IMG/VR virus record: IMGVR_UViG_3300032087_004980
Source: a virus
DNA length: 60,073 bases
Strand: one strand, 5' to 3'
Shown here: positions 31,667 to 34,470 of the stretch, in pieces
Layout: each line of letters opens with the position of its first letter
Position numbering within the stretch: position 1 is the stretch's first letter
The notes under the pieces: generated by a model
Database searches by the model: none
What the model saw: only the letters and a program-made list of their open reading frames with translations
What the model was told of the DNA's origin: nothing
Translations under genes and position numbers: made by a program

Positions 31667-32023
31667 ATGCCCTACAAAGACCCAGAAAAAAGGCGGGCAT
31701 ATCAAAGGGAGTATCATAGAAGGTATTACCTAGAGCATGCTGAAGCTTACAAGAAAAAAGCTGCCAAGCACAACAGGTCTCAGAGACGCTGGGCACGAGC
31801 TTATGTAGCGAGGGTCAAGGGCATGTCGTCTTGCGTAGATTGTGGTGAAAGCAACCCCATAGTTCTTGACTTTGATCATGTAAACGGGGACAAGTCTCAC
31901 AATATTTCAGACATGGTGAATGGTTCTTACGCCATCTCATCTATCAAAGAAGAGATTAGGAAGTGCAAGATAAGATGTTCTAACTGCCACAGAAAGAAAA
32001 CACACGAACGAAGAAATAAATAA
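31667..32023 (+). CDS. HNH endonuclease
   Basis: CVDCGESNPIVLDFDHVNGDKSHNISDM..KCKIRCSNCHRKKTHE (CxxC..H-N..N..CxxCH). Confidence 0.85.
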   Translation: MPYKDPEKRRAYQREYHRRYYLEHAEAYKKKAAKHNRSQRRWARAYVARVKGMSSCVDCGESNPIVLDFDHVNGDKSHNISDMVNGSYAISSIKEEIRKCKIRCSNCHRKKTHERRNK

Positions 32024-32100
32024 CCGCGAGTATCTCCTCAAGCTTATACCTTGTTGAAAGAGTAATTGGTTACATGTGGGTTCAAGCCCCACCTCGCGGA
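32024..32100 (+). other. tRNA-like element with a perfect acceptor stem and T-arm but a non-canonical core (pseudo-tRNA or atypical tRNA)
   Basis: CCGCGAG/CTCGCGG 7-bp acceptor plus discriminator A. GTGGG-TTCAAGC-CCCAC T-arm. No D-arm can be folded. The internal hairpin CAAG-CTTATAC-CTTG has a 7-nt loop with U33/A37-like positions (would read UAU). Confidence 0.4.
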
Positions 32101-32121
32101 CTTTAATTAAATTTGTACCAC

Positions 32122-32195
32122 GCCCCTGTAGCTCAACAGGATAGAGCAACGCACTTCTAATGCGTAGGTTTCAGGTTCGAGTCCTGACAGGGGTA
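32122..32195 (+). tRNA. trnR: tRNA-Arg (anticodon UCU)
   Basis: Hand-folded cloverleaf. Acceptor GCCCCTG/CAGGGGT, D-arm GCTC-AACAGGATA-GAGC, anticodon arm ACGCA-CTTCTAA-TGCGT, T-arm TCAGG-TTCGAGT-CCTGA, discriminator A. Confidence 0.9.
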
Positions 32196-32209
32196 CGAAA
32201 TTAAATACA

Positions 32210-32341
32210 ATGGCAAAACAACTAACTCCAGTTTACGAGAAGCGGCGCGTCAGAAGAAAGGGTGTGCACGCAAAGACCAAGCAGTCTAAGAACAAGAACT
32301 CTAAAAACTACAAGAAGCGTTATGCCTCTCAGGGACGATGA
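32210..32341 (+). CDS. Highly basic mini-ORF (43 aa) translationally coupled to terL
   Basis: MAKQLTPVYEKRRVRRKGVHAKTKQSKNKNSKNYKKRYASQGR; the stop overlaps the terL ATG (ATGA). Confidence 0.4.
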   Translation: MAKQLTPVYEKRRVRRKGVHAKTKQSKNKNSKNYKKRYASQGR

Positions 32342-34470
32342 GCGTTCTAGTAGATATAGAGGAGTACGATGAGCCAGGCATCAAGATTTGTCCCAACGGT
32401 ACGCAAGGTGAAAGTCTTGAACTTGGTGGGCTGGTCATTGTTCTTCCCGCTCAGCCGCCCAAAAAAAAAATTGCAGGACATGGAGGCGCAAAGCGCCTGC
32501 AGATGTGGCAGAGGAACGATATGCCTCAGGAACTGTCTAGGGTTCGCTCTATGGATGAGTGGCTCGAAATGCCAAGGGAGTTTAGACAGAAGTTTTCTCC
32601 GTATATCGAGGAGGAGTTTAGACGTAGGCGTGAGGGCTTTTGGTTCTATAACAACGGTGTCCCTACGTATATTACGGGTAGGCATTACATGATGCTGCAG
32701 TGGACTAGGATGGATATAGGCTATCCTAGCTTCCTGAACTTCCAAAGAGAAATCTTCTTACATTTAGCTGCGTGTGAGGCGGACCCTAGGTGTATAGGTC
32801 AGCTGTATACCAAATGCAGGCGGAGCGGATACACTAACATCTGCTCTGCCGTTTTGCTTGACGAAGCCACACAAGTCAAAGACAAGCTTTTGGGGATACA
32901 GTCTAAGACTGGTAAGGATGCCCAAGAGAATATATTCATGAAGAAGGTTGTGCAGATGTTTAGGCATTACCCCTTCTTTTTTAAACCCATTCAGGATGGT
33001 ACCACAAACCCACGCATGGAGCTGGCTTTTCGCGAGCCCTCTAAAAGAATCACGAAGAACAATAAGACTGCGCAGAAGGGCGAGGCTCTTAATACGGTAA
33101 TTAACTGGAAGAACACTACCAACAATGCATACGATGGTGAAAAGCTTCACCTGCTGTATTTAGACGAGGCAGGTAAATGGGAGAAGCCCACGGACATCCG
33201 TGATGCCTGGAGGATTCAGCGTACATGCCTTATCGTAGGCAGGAAGATTGTGGGCAAGGCTATGGTAGGAAGTACCGTCAACCCCATGGACAAGGGCGGT
33301 AAAGAGTACAAAGACCTTTGGGCAGACTCAGATCCATTTGACAGAAACGCAAACGGTCGCACTCGATCTGGGCTTTACAGGTTATTTATTCCTGCCTACG
33401 AATCCCTTGAGGGGTTCTTTGACCTTTATGGCAACCCAGTGATTTCTCAGCCAGAGTCAGCAGTAGAGGGGGTAGACGGAGACATGATCTACCAGGGGGC
33501 AAAGGTGTATTTAAAAAACGAAAGAGACAGCCTTAAGCATGATGCGTCTGAGCTAAACGAGGTTGTTCGTCAATTCCCATTTAGCGAAGAAGAAGCATTC
33601 AGAGACAGCATTGATGGGAGTGTGTTCAACGTAGGCAAGATCTACGAGCAAATGGACCACAATGAGGAGCTGTACCCAGACCCCGTGGTGACAGGAAACT
33701 TTATATGGAAGGATGGGGTCCAGGATACAGAGGTAGTATTTTCTCCTGACCCTAGAGGTAAATTTAATGTTTCATGGTTGCCACCTAAAGAACTGAGAAA
33801 CAAAAAGTTATACGAAGGCGGAAAACTTATGGCACCAAATGCAGAGCTGGGGGTAGGCGGGGTTGACTCCTACGATCTTGACGCCACCGTCGATGGACGG
33901 GGATCGAAGGGAGCGCTTCATCTATACAACAAGTTTCACATGGAGTATCCATCAAACATGTTTGTGGTAGAGTATGCGTCCCGTCCGCCTTTGGCTAAAA
34001 TATTTTACGAAGATGTTTTGATGGCTGCCTTTTATTTTGGCTACCCACTGTTAATTGAAAACAACAAGTACGGTATTGCAAGGTACTTTGAATCAAGAGG
34101 TTACGACGGCTACTTAATGGCCAGGCCAAAACACCTTTCAGCCCCCAACGCCAAGGTGAATGTTAAAACAAAAGGCATCCCATCAAACTCACAAGAAGTT
34201 ATTCAGGCCCACGCTCAGGCCATCGAGGCATACATACACAACTACGTTGGATATAACCCAGAAACAGGGGCGGCTGGTAACATGTACTTTAATGAAACCT
34301 TGGAGGACTGGATTGGATTTAAGATCGACAACAGGACAAAGTTTGACTTGACGATTAGCTCTGGTCTTTGTTTGTTGGCGGCTCAAAAAGTCAATCAAAA
34401 GAAGAAGTCTAGCCCTGATCTAGAAAGAAAATTTTTCAGGCGATACAAGCCCATCCAGTCAGAATACTGA
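32338..34470 (+). CDS. terL: Terminase large subunit
   Basis: 710 aa. Walker-A-like ..KCRRSGYT.., Walker B with catalytic Glu ..LHLLYLDEAG.., nuclease-type acidic motifs (..VGGVDSYD..; ..LLIENNKYG..). Directly precedes the portal-size gene. Confidence 0.8.
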   Translation: MSVLVDIEEYDEPGIKICPNGTQGESLELGGLVIVLPAQPPKKKIAGHGGAKRLQMWQRNDMPQELSRVRSMDEWLEMPREFRQKFSPYIEEEFRRRREGFWFYNNGVPTYITGRHYMMLQWTRMDIGYPSFLNFQREIFLHLAACEADPRCIGQLYTKCRRSGYTNICSAVLLDEATQVKDKLLGIQSKTGKDAQENIFMKKVVQMFRHYPFFFKPIQDGTTNPRMELAFREPSKRITKNNKTAQKGEALNTVINWKNTTNNAYDGEKLHLLYLDEAGKWEKPTDIRDAWRIQRTCLIVGRKIVGKAMVGSTVNPMDKGGKEYKDLWADSDPFDRNANGRTRSGLYRLFIPAYESLEGFFDLYGNPVISQPESAVEGVDGDMIYQGAKVYLKNERDSLKHDASELNEVVRQFPFSEEEAFRDSIDGSVFNVGKIYEQMDHNEELYPDPVVTGNFIWKDGVQDTEVVFSPDPRGKFNVSWLPPKELRNKKLYEGGKLMAPNAELGVGGVDSYDLDATVDGRGSKGALHLYNKFHMEYPSNMFVVEYASRPPLAKIFYEDVLMAAFYFGYPLLIENNKYGIARYFESRGYDGYLMARPKHLSAPNAKVNVKTKGIPSNSQEVIQAHAQAIEAYIHNYVGYNPETGAAGNMYFNETLEDWIGFKIDNRTKFDLTISSGLCLLAAQKVNQKKKSSPDLERKFFRRYKPIQSEY

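What the first reader, a model, noticed from the sequence alone, without database searches (positions are those of the whole stretch)
32024..32100. Aberrant tRNA-like element abutting the HNH stop codon
Starting on the base right after the HNH stop codon, a 77-nt segment has a perfect 7-bp acceptor stem (CCGCGAG/CTCGCGG). It also has a discriminator A and a canonical T-arm (GTGGG-TTCAAGC-CCCAC).

The 45 nt in between cannot be folded into D and anticodon arms. Instead there are two hairpins. One is CAAG-CTTATAC-CTTG; its 7-nt loop has U33/A37-like positions and would present UAU, reading the Ile codon AUA. The other is GTAA-TTGG-TTAC.

The element could be any of the following:
- a decayed tRNA;
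- a D-arm-less functional tRNA;
- a tRNA-mimic decoy, for example against anticodon nucleases or tRNA-targeting defence;
- a processing signal for the adjacent tRNA-Arg.
Basis: seen in the sequence. Interest (0 to 1): 0.6.

Follow-up and report, generated by a model that had tools for sequence, protein, structure and literature searches.

The report
Phage isoleucine tRNA with rewired core
The 77 bases after the HNH gene are very probably a working isoleucine tRNA for the AUA codon whose D-arm pieces are joined in a different order from the universal cloverleaf, a design shared by hundreds of phage tRNA genes (isoleucine and arginine), missed by tRNA finders and absent from the papers I could search.

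Summary
The sequence features are real: a perfect 7-bp acceptor stem, discriminator A, a canonical T arm and a CAAG/CTTG stem with a 7-nt loop presenting UAU, starting on the base after the HNH stop. ARAGORN and Rfam's tRNA model do not call it.

It is not decayed. It belongs to a large phage family: 136 distinct 77-nt sequences were aligned and more than 200 copies found.
- Covariation supports four helices, 98% paired.
That stretch is a D-loop look-alike (U-A-R-N-N-G-G-N-N-N-C-A-Y) lying after the anticodon arm.
- Anticodons are only Ile (GAU, UAU), CAU and Arg (ACG, UCU, CCU, UCG).
- The base after GG is A in 51 of 51 Arg members (the ArgRS A20 rule) and U in 68 of 74 Ile members. The discriminator is A in all Ile members.
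- Members replace the ordinary tRNA of the same anticodon in phage tRNA arrays. For GAU, it is present in 2 of 58 arrays that have a member and in 18 of 32 that lack one.

Best reading: a functional, non-cloverleaf tRNA-Ile(UAU), confidence about 0.8. Earlier notes of this scan describe the same family on other DNA. No experiment has tested it.

The parts
31667..32023 (+). HNH endonuclease ORF (118 aa). Its stop codon abuts the RNA gene. With terL just downstream, it is probably the packaging-associated HNH.
   Evidence: ORF. PHROGs phrog_2255 HNH endonuclease, E 6.4e-25. No Pfam hit at E<=0.001.
32024..32100 (+). The whole rewired tRNA-Ile(UAU) gene, 77 nt. CCA is not encoded.
   Evidence: Family model R1: 93.7 bits, E 7.4e-28, full length. 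Not called by ARAGORN or Rfam.
32024..32030 (+). Acceptor stem, 5' strand. It pairs with 32093-32099.
   Evidence: 7 of 7 Watson-Crick pairs here. Family columns 1-7 with 70-76 are 97% paired, and all 7 pairs show changes on both sides.
32031..32033 (+). Linker UAU. U8 and A9 are invariant in the family.
   Evidence: Columns 8 and 9 are invariant in 136 of 136 sequences.
32034..32036 (+). Helix H2, 5' strand (CTC). This is the D-stem equivalent (positions 23-25 by inference) and pairs with 32060-32062.
   Evidence: Columns 11-13 with 37-39 are 100% paired. Two of the pairs show four pair types each, and the third is C-G in 134 of 136 sequences, like G10-C25. They are among the top mutual-information pairs. 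RNAalifold predicts the helix independently.
32039..32053 (+). Anticodon arm: a 4-bp stem CAAG/CTTG around the 7-nt loop CTTATAC. The anticodon TAT is at 32045-32047. The flanking U32038 and U32054 form a possible U-U fifth layer.
   Evidence: Columns 16-19 with 27-30 are 98% paired, and all 4 pairs covary. C32, U33 and A37 are present here; those three positions were fixed by the scan patterns, so their constancy in the alignment is not independent evidence.
32054..32059 (+). Conserved bulge TTGAAA on the 3' side of the long arm. By inference it stands in for the variable-loop nucleotides that pack on the D stem.
   Evidence: Invariant in alignment A1, but the patterns required it. The model search found TAGAAA variants.
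32060..32062 (+). Helix H2, 3' strand (GAG). This is the D-stem equivalent (positions 10-12 by inference).
32063..32075 (+). D-loop-like single strand TAATTGGTTACAT. The family consensus is U-A-R-N-N-G-G-N-N-N-C-A-Y. GG corresponds to G18 G19, the base after GG to position 20, and the last base to position 48.
Evidence: Column 42 with column 52 covaries as A-U 100, G-C 22, G-U 5, U-A 2 and other 7. Column 47 is A in 51 of 51 Arg members and U in 68 of 74 Ile members.
32076..32092 (+). T arm: GTGGG, loop TTCAAGC, CCCAC.
   Evidence: Columns 53-57 with 65-69 are 98% paired, and 4 of the 5 pairs covary. The T-loop consensus is canonical.
32093..32100 (+). Acceptor stem 3' strand plus discriminator A73.
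   Evidence: The discriminator is A in 74 of 74 Ile and 11 of 11 CAU members. In Arg members it is A 19, G 27, U 5.
32122..32196 (+). Ordinary cloverleaf tRNA-Arg(UCU), the neighbouring gene.
   Evidence: ARAGORN. RF00005 70.6 bits. Its D loop AACAGGATA has A after GG.
32338..34470 (+). Large terminase gene downstream. It places the tRNA pair at the head of the late genes.
   Evidence: tblastn gives 41-48% identity to the terminase large subunit of Flavobacterium and Cellulophaga phages and of a spring-water Caudoviricetes genome.

Best explanation
Window 32024-32100 encodes a functional elongator tRNA-Ile with anticodon UAU that reads AUA. It has a non-cloverleaf secondary structure: a three-way junction.

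Layout:
- The acceptor stem and T arm are standard.
- The third arm is one long hairpin: a 3-bp outer helix (CTC with GAG), an asymmetric internal loop (CU opposite UUGAAA), a 4-bp anticodon stem and a normal 7-nt anticodon loop.
- A 13-nt strand with the D-loop consensus (A14, R15, G18 G19, A21-like, ending in Y48) runs from the outer helix to the T arm.

Inferred three-dimensional reading:
- The outer helix is the D stem, stacked under the anticodon stem as in any tRNA.
- The chain passes through it in a different order. In standard numbering the order is 8-9, then 22-25, 26, the anticodon arm and the 44-48-like bulge, then 10-13 and the D loop 14-21, then the T arm.
- The D-loop GG can therefore still dock on the T loop, and the molecule keeps the L shape and the anticodon-to-elbow distance.

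Inferred life cycle:
- The gene is transcribed with the HNH and late genes.
- RNase P cuts right after the HNH stop codon, the 3' end is trimmed, and the host adds CCA.
- Host IleRS charges it, using A73 and the anticodon loop.
- It supplies AUA decoding without needing the host's lysidine pathway, alongside the neighbouring tRNA-Arg(UCU) for AGA/AGG.

Shown: family-wide conservation, covariation, residues coupled to amino-acid identity, and replacement of the ordinary isoacceptor. Inferred: the 3D fold, processing, charging and decoding.
For: 1. Family size.
- Motif scans of IMG/VR found more than 200 copies and 136 distinct 77-nt sequences.
- Carriers include crAss-like phages, Streptomyces phages, huge phages and this Flavobacterium-phage-like genome.

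2. Structure.
- The proposed structure is 98.0% paired against 61.6% in shuffles. The covariation score is 0.938 against 0.226, and 0.12-0.15 for slid controls.
- The top 15 mutual-information pairs are exactly its helix pairs.
- RNAalifold predicts the same structure unaided.

3. Tertiary signature.
- The '15-48' pair covaries: A-U 100, G-C 22, U-A 2.
- U8, A9, A14, G19 and the T loop are invariant. The scan patterns had fixed A14, G19 and part of the T loop, so only U8 and A9 are independent.

4. Identity rules.
- Anticodons are only GAU 49, UAU 25, CAU 11, ACG 30, UCU 14, CCU 6 and UCG 1.
- A scan for A35 with a non-U at position 36 gave 0 hits.
- An anticodon-free scan of 185,579 genomes gave only UAU, GAU, CAU, UCU and CCU.
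- The base after GG is A in 51 of 51 Arg members and in 2 of 74 Ile members. Ordinary tRNAs of the same loci follow the same rule: A in 104 of 106 Arg, U in 52 of 56 Ile.
- A73 is present in 74 of 74 Ile members.

5. Replacement of the ordinary isoacceptor in arrays.
- GAU: present in 2 of 58 arrays that have a rewired GAU and in 18 of 32 that lack one (p 1.6e-8).
- UAU: 0 of 16 against 24 of 74 (p 0.005).
- ACG: 0 of 15 against 27 of 75 (p 0.004).
- Kehishuvirus 'tikkala' and Streptomyces phage Jay2Jay each have an ordinary Ile-UAU plus a rewired Ile-GAU.

6. This copy.
- Every helix is perfect, and it scores 93.7 bits.
- It is identical in L025, L030 and L046, whose flanks are about 74% identical.
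- It occupies a tRNA slot next to tRNA-Arg(UCU) in all relatives.
- The phage uses ATA for 182 of 977 Ile codons.

7. Plausibility. E. coli HisRS, EF-Tu and the ribosome accept even a tRNA with no D arm (PMC11551756).
Against: - There is no experimental evidence of expression, processing, CCA addition, aminoacylation or decoding for any member.
- The 3D mapping is inference; no RNA 3D model was built.
- Several 'invariant' positions (C32, U33, A37, UUGAAAG, UA, GG, GUUC) were required by my scan patterns. Their invariance is therefore partly circular. The model search did reveal UAGAAAG and shorter variants.
- The loci used for the exclusivity test are related to one another and are partial contigs, so the p-values overstate independence.
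- The anticodon stem has only 4 Watson-Crick pairs plus a U-U layer.
- Why the design is limited to Ile, CAU and Arg is unexplained.
- tRNAscan-SE was not available.
Confidence: 0.8

Rival explanations
1. It is a tRNA mimic or decoy. It is made and folded like a tRNA but is not used in translation. Instead it soaks up or misleads a host tRNA-targeting defence (an anticodon nuclease or tRNA-tail nuclease), or a host tRNA-modifying or tRNA-decay enzyme.
For: - The anticodon loop, acceptor stem and T arm are preserved while the core is altered.
- The design is confined to a few specificities, Ile, CAU and Arg. That could reflect the targets of particular nucleases.
- tRNA-targeting immunity is common (for example PMC12851939, listed).
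Against: - A decoy should be added to the ordinary tRNA of the same anticodon, not replace it. Arrays with a rewired GAU, UAU or ACG almost never keep the ordinary one.
- Residues that matter for aminoacylation but not for an anticodon nuclease track the anticodon exactly: A20 with Arg anticodons, A73 with Ile.
Confidence: 0.1
2. It is a working tRNA whose rewired core was selected because it escapes a host factor that recognises the ordinary D arm (a nuclease, a modification-dependent decay route or a defence system) while synthetase recognition is kept. This is a refinement of the best explanation rather than a contradiction of it.
For: - All hits are phage-borne. The 31 hits among 185,579 species genomes are all on MAG contigs, and none is in an isolate genome.
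- The design is spread across unrelated phages of Bacteroidota, Actinomycetota and other hosts.
- The identity elements are intact.
Against: - No defence system or enzyme is known to me that reads D-arm connectivity.
- I saw no consistent partner gene next to members. The neighbours differ: HNH here, a nucleotidyltransferase in Jay2Jay, other tRNAs in crAss-like phages.
- The design could equally be a neutral alternative fold that spread by descent.
Confidence: 0.2
3. It is a decayed tRNA gene or a chance tRNA-like sequence with no function.
For: Standard finders reject it. There is no D hairpin.
Against: - It is 100% conserved against about 74% identity in the flanks.
- 98% of pairs are kept, with hundreds of compensatory changes across 136 sequences.
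- All helices are perfect in this copy.
Confidence: 0.02
4. It is a cis-acting element: a processing or termination signal for the HNH mRNA or for the adjacent tRNA-Arg, or a phage attachment-site remnant.
For: It abuts the HNH stop codon and lies 21 nt upstream of tRNA-Arg.
Against: - Relatives at about 90% and 74% identity carry a 197-nt insert with a small ORF between it and tRNA-Arg.
- Other members lie between unrelated tRNAs or next to protein genes.
- Conservation of the anticodon and of identity residues is not expected for a processing signal.
Confidence: 0.03

Closest known systems
Ordinary bacterial and phage elongator tRNA-Ile(UAU)/(GAU) and tRNA-Arg (class I cloverleaf, Rfam RF00005). 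Examples: the window's own tRNA-Arg(UCU) at 32122-32196 and the tRNA-Ile(UAU) of Kehishuvirus 'tikkala' (L358:1735-1809).
   Same: - 7-bp acceptor stem, discriminator, and a 5-bp T stem with a GTTCRANNC loop.
- A 7-nt anticodon loop with C32, U33 and A37.
- U8 and A9.
- A D-loop motif with A14, R15, G18 G19 and the identity base at position 20.
- A G-C pair equivalent to G10-C25.
- A total length of 77 nt and a place in tRNA arrays.
   Different: - There is no D hairpin between position 9 and the anticodon arm.
- One D-stem strand precedes the anticodon arm; the other strand and the D loop follow it.
- The secondary structure is a three-way junction instead of a four-way one.
- An invariant GAAA-containing bulge replaces the variable loop.
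- The anticodon stem has 4 Watson-Crick pairs plus a U-U layer.
- RF00005 and ARAGORN do not recognise it.
Mitochondrial tRNAs without a D arm (mammalian mt-tRNA-Ser(AGY), nematode mt-tRNA-Ser) and the synthetic 'mini HisT' of E. coli (PMC7609411, PMC11551756).
   Same: There is no D hairpin. The acceptor stem is joined to the anticodon arm by a short linker. Such RNAs are accepted by translation machinery in their own systems.
   Different: - Those RNAs have lost the D stem and the G18 G19 motif. They are short (about 60 nt) and fold into a Y or boomerang shape without a D/T-loop contact.
- This family keeps both elements, relocated. It is full length and occurs in phages of bacteria.
- ARAGORN's mitochondrial modes do not call it.
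tRNAs with novel cloverleaf proportions (8/4 and 9/3 allo-tRNAs, tRNA-Sec; PMC5389517).
   Same: Natural non-standard tRNAs found by metagenome mining, some of them in phages.
   Different: Those keep the four-arm cloverleaf order and change only stem lengths. Here the stem lengths are standard (7/5) and the order of the parts is changed.
Circularly permuted tRNAs (permuted tRNA genes of red algae; engineered permuted yeast tRNA-Phe). Recalled from my own knowledge, not checked here.
   Same: The idea that tRNA parts can be joined in another order and still give the L shape.
   Different: Those cases permute the whole molecule, and the algal ones are processed back to a normal tRNA. Here the acceptor ends are normal, and only the internal block (positions 10-48) appears permuted in the mature RNA.

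Membership tests
Canonical tRNA (Rfam RF00005 / cloverleaf) | 7-bp acceptor stem with discriminator, and a 5-bp T stem with a T-loop consensus | tested here: met
   Sequence. Family covariation is 97-98% paired.
Canonical tRNA (Rfam RF00005 / cloverleaf) | Anticodon arm with a 7-nt loop, U33 and purine 37 | tested here: met
   Loop CTTATAC at 32043-49. The stem has 4 Watson-Crick pairs plus a U-U layer.
Canonical tRNA (Rfam RF00005 / cloverleaf) | D hairpin (stem 10-13 with 22-25 closing the D loop) between position 9 and the anticodon arm | tested here: not met
   [quoted passage not shown] The covarying partner of 32034-36 lies after the anticodon arm.
Canonical tRNA (Rfam RF00005 / cloverleaf) | Reaches the curated RF00005 score, or is called by a tRNA finder | tested here: not met
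   No RF00005 hit even at E<=10. ARAGORN called 0 of 208 family copies. RF00005 called 1 of 8 members in five loci, at 30.8 bits against a cut-off of 29. tRNAscan-SE was not available.
Rewired-core phage tRNA family (model R1 built here) | Outer 3-bp helix bracketing the anticodon arm, a UUGAAA-type bulge, and a D-loop-like strand U-A-R-N-N-G-G-N-N-N-C-A-Y before the T arm | tested here: met
   93.7 bits, E 7.4e-28, full-length match. All elements are present at 32034-32075.
tRNA-Ile identity (IleRS substrate) | Anticodon N-A-U with A37, and discriminator A73 | tested here: met
   TAT at 32045-47, A at 32048, A at 32100. A73 is present in 74 of 74 Ile members.
tRNA-Ile identity (IleRS substrate) | Actual aminoacylation with isoleucine and decoding of AUA | not testable with these tools
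   This needs charging assays or tRNA sequencing in infected cells.
Mitochondrial-type D-armless tRNA | D arm replaced by a short connector, loss of G18 G19 and of the D/T-loop contact, shortened molecule | tested here: not met
   The GG motif and a D-stem equivalent are retained, and the length is 77 nt. ARAGORN's -mt modes give no call over the full 32024-32100 element; only a spurious low-threshold mtRNA-Leu at about 32052-32125 partly overlaps it.

The most novel reading that the evidence does not exclude
Phages carry a natural class of non-cloverleaf tRNAs that work on ordinary bacterial ribosomes. In these tRNAs the block from position 10 to 48 is internally permuted, so the D loop lies after the anticodon arm. 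The design persists because the altered core hides these Ile and Arg tRNAs from host factors that attack or degrade ordinary tRNAs during infection, while IleRS and ArgRS still recognise them.
Probability: 0.2. Interest if true: 0.92.

Novelty: new variant of a known kind. Interest (0 to 1): 0.8.

Why it matters
The cloverleaf is treated as universal outside mitochondria. A 2024 paper states that all known bacterial tRNAs adopt it and that arm-less tRNAs occur only in mitochondria (PMC11551756).

A widespread, conserved phage family would show that the tRNA fold can be reached by another chain topology, if it does what the sequence suggests. It keeps every functional tRNA element but strings the D-arm parts in another order. 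It also follows synthetase identity rules and replaces ordinary isoacceptors.

Consequences if it holds:
- Phage tRNA repertoires are under-counted by the standard finders. These genes are unannotated in cultured phages such as Kehishuvirus 'tikkala' and about 77 Streptomyces phage records.
- Synthetic biology would gain a natural alternative tRNA chassis.
- It would open the question of why only Ile, CAU and Arg tRNAs use the design.

For this window, it explains the 'aberrant' element as one of the phage's two tRNA genes (AUA and AGA/AGG readers) at the head of the late genes.

Tried and rejected
- Standard cloverleaf: rejected. ARAGORN in bacterial, relaxed and mitochondrial modes, and Rfam at E<=10, find nothing at 32024-32100.
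It is 66% paired with no covariation.
- Minus-strand gene: rejected. The T-loop consensus reads on the + strand, and the overlapping minus-strand ORF 31937-32149 has no support.
- The pattern CTGATAA-N4-TTGAAAG alone was too loose. It returned almost only coding DNA and one new member, L085.
- blastn of the 2.5-kb region against cultured phages found only tRNA-Arg look-alikes plus one homologue of the element.
- No whole genome is held for the window.
- Pfam gave nothing for the HNH ORF or for terL. PHROGs and tblastn did.
- The sigma-70 promoter and terminator scan was uninformative. The likely host phylum uses other promoters.
- Seven literature searches and three papers read found no description of this layout.
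- Whether the CAU members are Met or lysidine-Ile2 could not be settled.
- The earlier notes' claims about Felix O1 and T4-like phages were not tested. blastn with one Arg member was too insensitive.

Full report
**1. What is in the sequence**

The HNH ORF runs 31667-32023. PHROGs matches it to HNH endonuclease families with E 6e-25. Its TAA stop is at 32021-23, and the element begins on the next base.

Reading, the element is laid out as follows:
- acceptor 5' strand, 32024-30
- UAU, 32031-33
- CTC, 32034-36
- CT, 32037-38
- CAAG, 32039-42
- loop CTTATAC, 32043-49, with anticodon TAT at 32045-47
- CTTG, 32050-53
- TTGAAA, 32054-59
- GAG, 32060-62
- TAATTGGTTACAT, 32063-75
- T arm, 32076-92
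- acceptor 3' strand, 32093-99
- discriminator A, 32100

CCA is not encoded. An ordinary tRNA-Arg(UCU) follows at 32122-32196.

ARAGORN finds nothing at the element in any mode. Rfam finds no tRNA match there even at E<=10.

**2. It has relatives, and many of them**

blastn of the region against cultured and deposited phages gave one homologue of the element. It lies in a 462-kb uncultured phage, directly after four tRNA genes. That copy has compensatory changes in every stem and the anticodon GAT, which is also isoleucine.

Motif scans of IMG/VR then returned more than 200 copies. After removing duplicates and requiring a paired acceptor stem, 136 distinct 77-nt sequences aligned without a single gap (alignment A1).

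**3. Structure from covariation**

I tested a three-way junction: acceptor stem; a long arm made of a 3-bp outer helix, an internal loop and a 4-bp anticodon stem; and the T arm. I added one long-range pair.
- 98.0% of cells are paired, against 61.6% in shuffles.
- The covariation score is 0.938, against 0.226 in shuffles and 0.12-0.15 when partners are slid by 1-3 columns.
- The outer helix (columns 11-13 with 37-39) is paired in 100% of sequences. It shows C-G, A-U, G-C and U-A at two positions and a nearly invariant C-G at the third.

An unbiased mutual-information scan of all column pairs puts 15 of the helix pairs in the top 15 places. RNAalifold predicts the same structure by itself.

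It is 66% paired, and 60 of 136 sequences break its closing G-C.

**4. The strand after the long arm is a D loop**

Its consensus is U-A-R-N-N-G-G-N-N-N-C-A-Y. The window's own ordinary tRNA-Arg has the D loop AACAGGATA. Rewired Arg members have AAYTGGAYA at the same place.

The third base (R, 'position 15') covaries with the last base before the T stem ('position 48'): A-U 100, G-C 22, G-U 5, U-A 2, other 7. That is what a Levitt-type pair would give.

The invariant C-G of the outer helix matches the conserved G10-C25 pair. U8 and A9 are invariant.

My inference is that the outer helix is the D stem stacked on the anticodon stem, with the chain order 8-9 / 22-25 / 26 / anticodon arm / 44-48-like bulge / 10-13 / 14-21 / linker / T arm. 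This is an internal permutation of the block 10-48. The stack height is 4 layers, plus 1, plus 5 layers, the same as in an ordinary tRNA. No 3D model was computed, so this step is inferred, not shown.

**5. It behaves like a set of real tRNAs**

The first scan left the anticodon free and returned only GAT and TAT. Further scans gave the following:
- Any non-A at position 35 returned only arginine anticodons: ACG, TCT, CCT, TCG.
- A35 with a non-T at position 36 returned nothing.
- M-A-T returned 11 CAT members.
- An anticodon-free scan of one genome for each of 185,579 species gave 31 hits. All are on MAG contigs and none is in an isolate genome. Their anticodons are UAU 13, GAU 10, CAU 5, UCU 1 and CCU 1.

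The strongest non-helical coupling in the alignment is between anticodon position 35 and the base after GG. That base is A in 51 of 51 Arg members; A20 is the classical ArgRS identity base. It is A in only 2 of 74 Ile members. Ordinary tRNAs from the same loci obey the same rule: A in 104 of 106 Arg, U in 52 of 56 Ile.

The discriminator is A in all 74 Ile and all 11 CAU members. It is mixed (G, A, U) in Arg members.

**6. They replace ordinary isoacceptors**

ARAGORN called none of 208 family copies. I then compared arrays that have at least 10 ordinary tRNAs.

| Anticodon | Ordinary tRNA present, arrays with a rewired copy | Ordinary tRNA present, arrays without one | Fisher p |
|---|---|---|---|
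| GAU | 2 of 58 | 18 of 32 | 1.6e-8 |
| UAU | 0 of 16 | 24 of 74 | 0.005 |
| ACG | 0 of 15 | 27 of 75 | 0.004 |

The loci are related to each other and are partial contigs, so the p-values are optimistic. The direction is consistent.

In two cultured phages the rewired gene is Ile-GAU and the ordinary gene is Ile-UAU: the crAss-like Kehishuvirus 'tikkala' and Streptomyces phage Jay2Jay. In both, the rewired gene lies in an unannotated gap. Rfam's tRNA model reaches its cut-off for only 1 of 8 rewired genes in five loci (30.8 against 29 bits). The neighbouring ordinary tRNAs score 35-71 bits.

**7. This window's copy**

- It scores 93.7 bits against the family model; ordinary tRNAs score 28 bits or less.
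- It is identical in three contigs whose flanking DNA is only about 74% identical. It differs by 1-2 compensated or wobble changes in contigs at about 90% identity.
- All these relatives keep the order HNH, element, tRNA-Arg(UCU), terL. They carry an extra 197 nt with a small ORF between the two RNA genes, which argues against a role as a processing signal for tRNA-Arg.
- The terminase is 41-48% identical to those of Flavobacterium and Cellulophaga phages, so the host is probably a member of Bacteroidota.
- The phage uses ATA for 19% of its Ile codons, and AGA plus AGG for 56% of its Arg codons. That fits a two-gene set reading AUA and AGA/AGG.

**8. Known or new**

Rfam 15 has no family for it. 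Seven full-text searches and three papers read did not turn up the layout.
- A 2020 review of non-canonical tRNAs does not mention phage cases of this kind.
- A 2024 paper states that all known bacterial tRNAs are cloverleaves and that arm-less tRNAs are confined to mitochondria. It also shows that E. coli's machinery tolerates a tRNA without a D arm.

Earlier notes of this scan describe the same 'rewired core' Ile and Arg tRNAs on other genomes. I reached the same reading before seeing them and tested it independently here, but they are not independent evidence.

**9. Verdict**

The interpretation 'aberrant/decayed' is wrong. The element is most likely a functional tRNA-Ile(UAU) of an undescribed, non-cloverleaf, phage-borne tRNA class. 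What is missing is any experiment.

Noticed in passing
L276, L281 and other loci (for example L276:1416-1492): The same rewired scaffold carries arginine anticodons (ACG 30, UCU 14, CCU 6, UCG 1 distinct sequences). A follows the GG in every case, and the discriminator is mostly G or A.
   Followed up: yes
L345-L357 (for example L347:4761-4837): Eleven distinct members carry the anticodon CAT with A73. They could be elongator Met or lysidine-type Ile2. Their anticodon stems match those of some GAU members. Unresolved.
   Followed up: partly
L211:1381-2066 (minus strand): One 34-kb viral contig has a run of unusual tRNA-like genes: a standard family member (GAU), two divergent relatives with longer or different linkers (CAU at 1730-1807, GAU at 1561-1641), and a tRNA with a very long extra region at 1381-1469.
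   Followed up: partly
L249:1576-1650 (minus strand): A 75-nt Arg(UCU) variant of the design has a 5-bp anticodon stem and shorter linkers (53.7 bits). The layout therefore tolerates different loop sizes.
   Followed up: no
L020:882-1078, and the same place in L023, L025, L030 and L046; the window junction is at about 32107-32120: Relatives have a 197-nt insert with an ORF of about 54 aa between the rewired tRNA and tRNA-Arg. The window lacks it.
   Followed up: partly
window 32210-32341: A 43-aa, very basic ORF lies between tRNA-Arg and terL and overlaps the terL start. It has no family match. It could be a small DNA-binding or terminase-associated protein, or not a gene at all.
   Followed up: partly
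window 31667-34470: The order HNH endonuclease, two tRNA genes, large terminase resembles the HNH-plus-terminase packaging modules of some phages. The HNH is therefore probably a packaging factor rather than a homing enzyme.
   Followed up: no
L375 (JBAZIW010000001.1, 362,763 bp, labelled Candidatus Paceibacterota MAG) and L188 (IMG/VR contig of 362,763 bp): A contig filed as a CPR bacterium has the same length and the same rewired tRNA as an IMG/VR huge-phage contig. It is probably a phage binned as a bacterium. All 31 genome-contig hits are on MAG contigs.
   Followed up: no
L358:1495-1571 (OQ198717) and L359:2495-2571 (NC_029098): In cultured phages the family member lies in unannotated gaps. 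In one Streptomyces phage record (EGole) the spot is annotated as tRNA-Leu, which does not fit the GAU anticodon seen at this spot in the related phage Jay2Jay (I did not read EGole's own sequence).
   Followed up: partly
L179, L204, L207, L237, L240, L254, L265, L271 (contigs of about 93-100 kb from sample 3300045988): crAss-sized contigs carry two rewired Ile genes about 250 nt apart: GAU and UAU. The UAU copy has TAGAAAG instead of TTGAAAG.
   Followed up: partly
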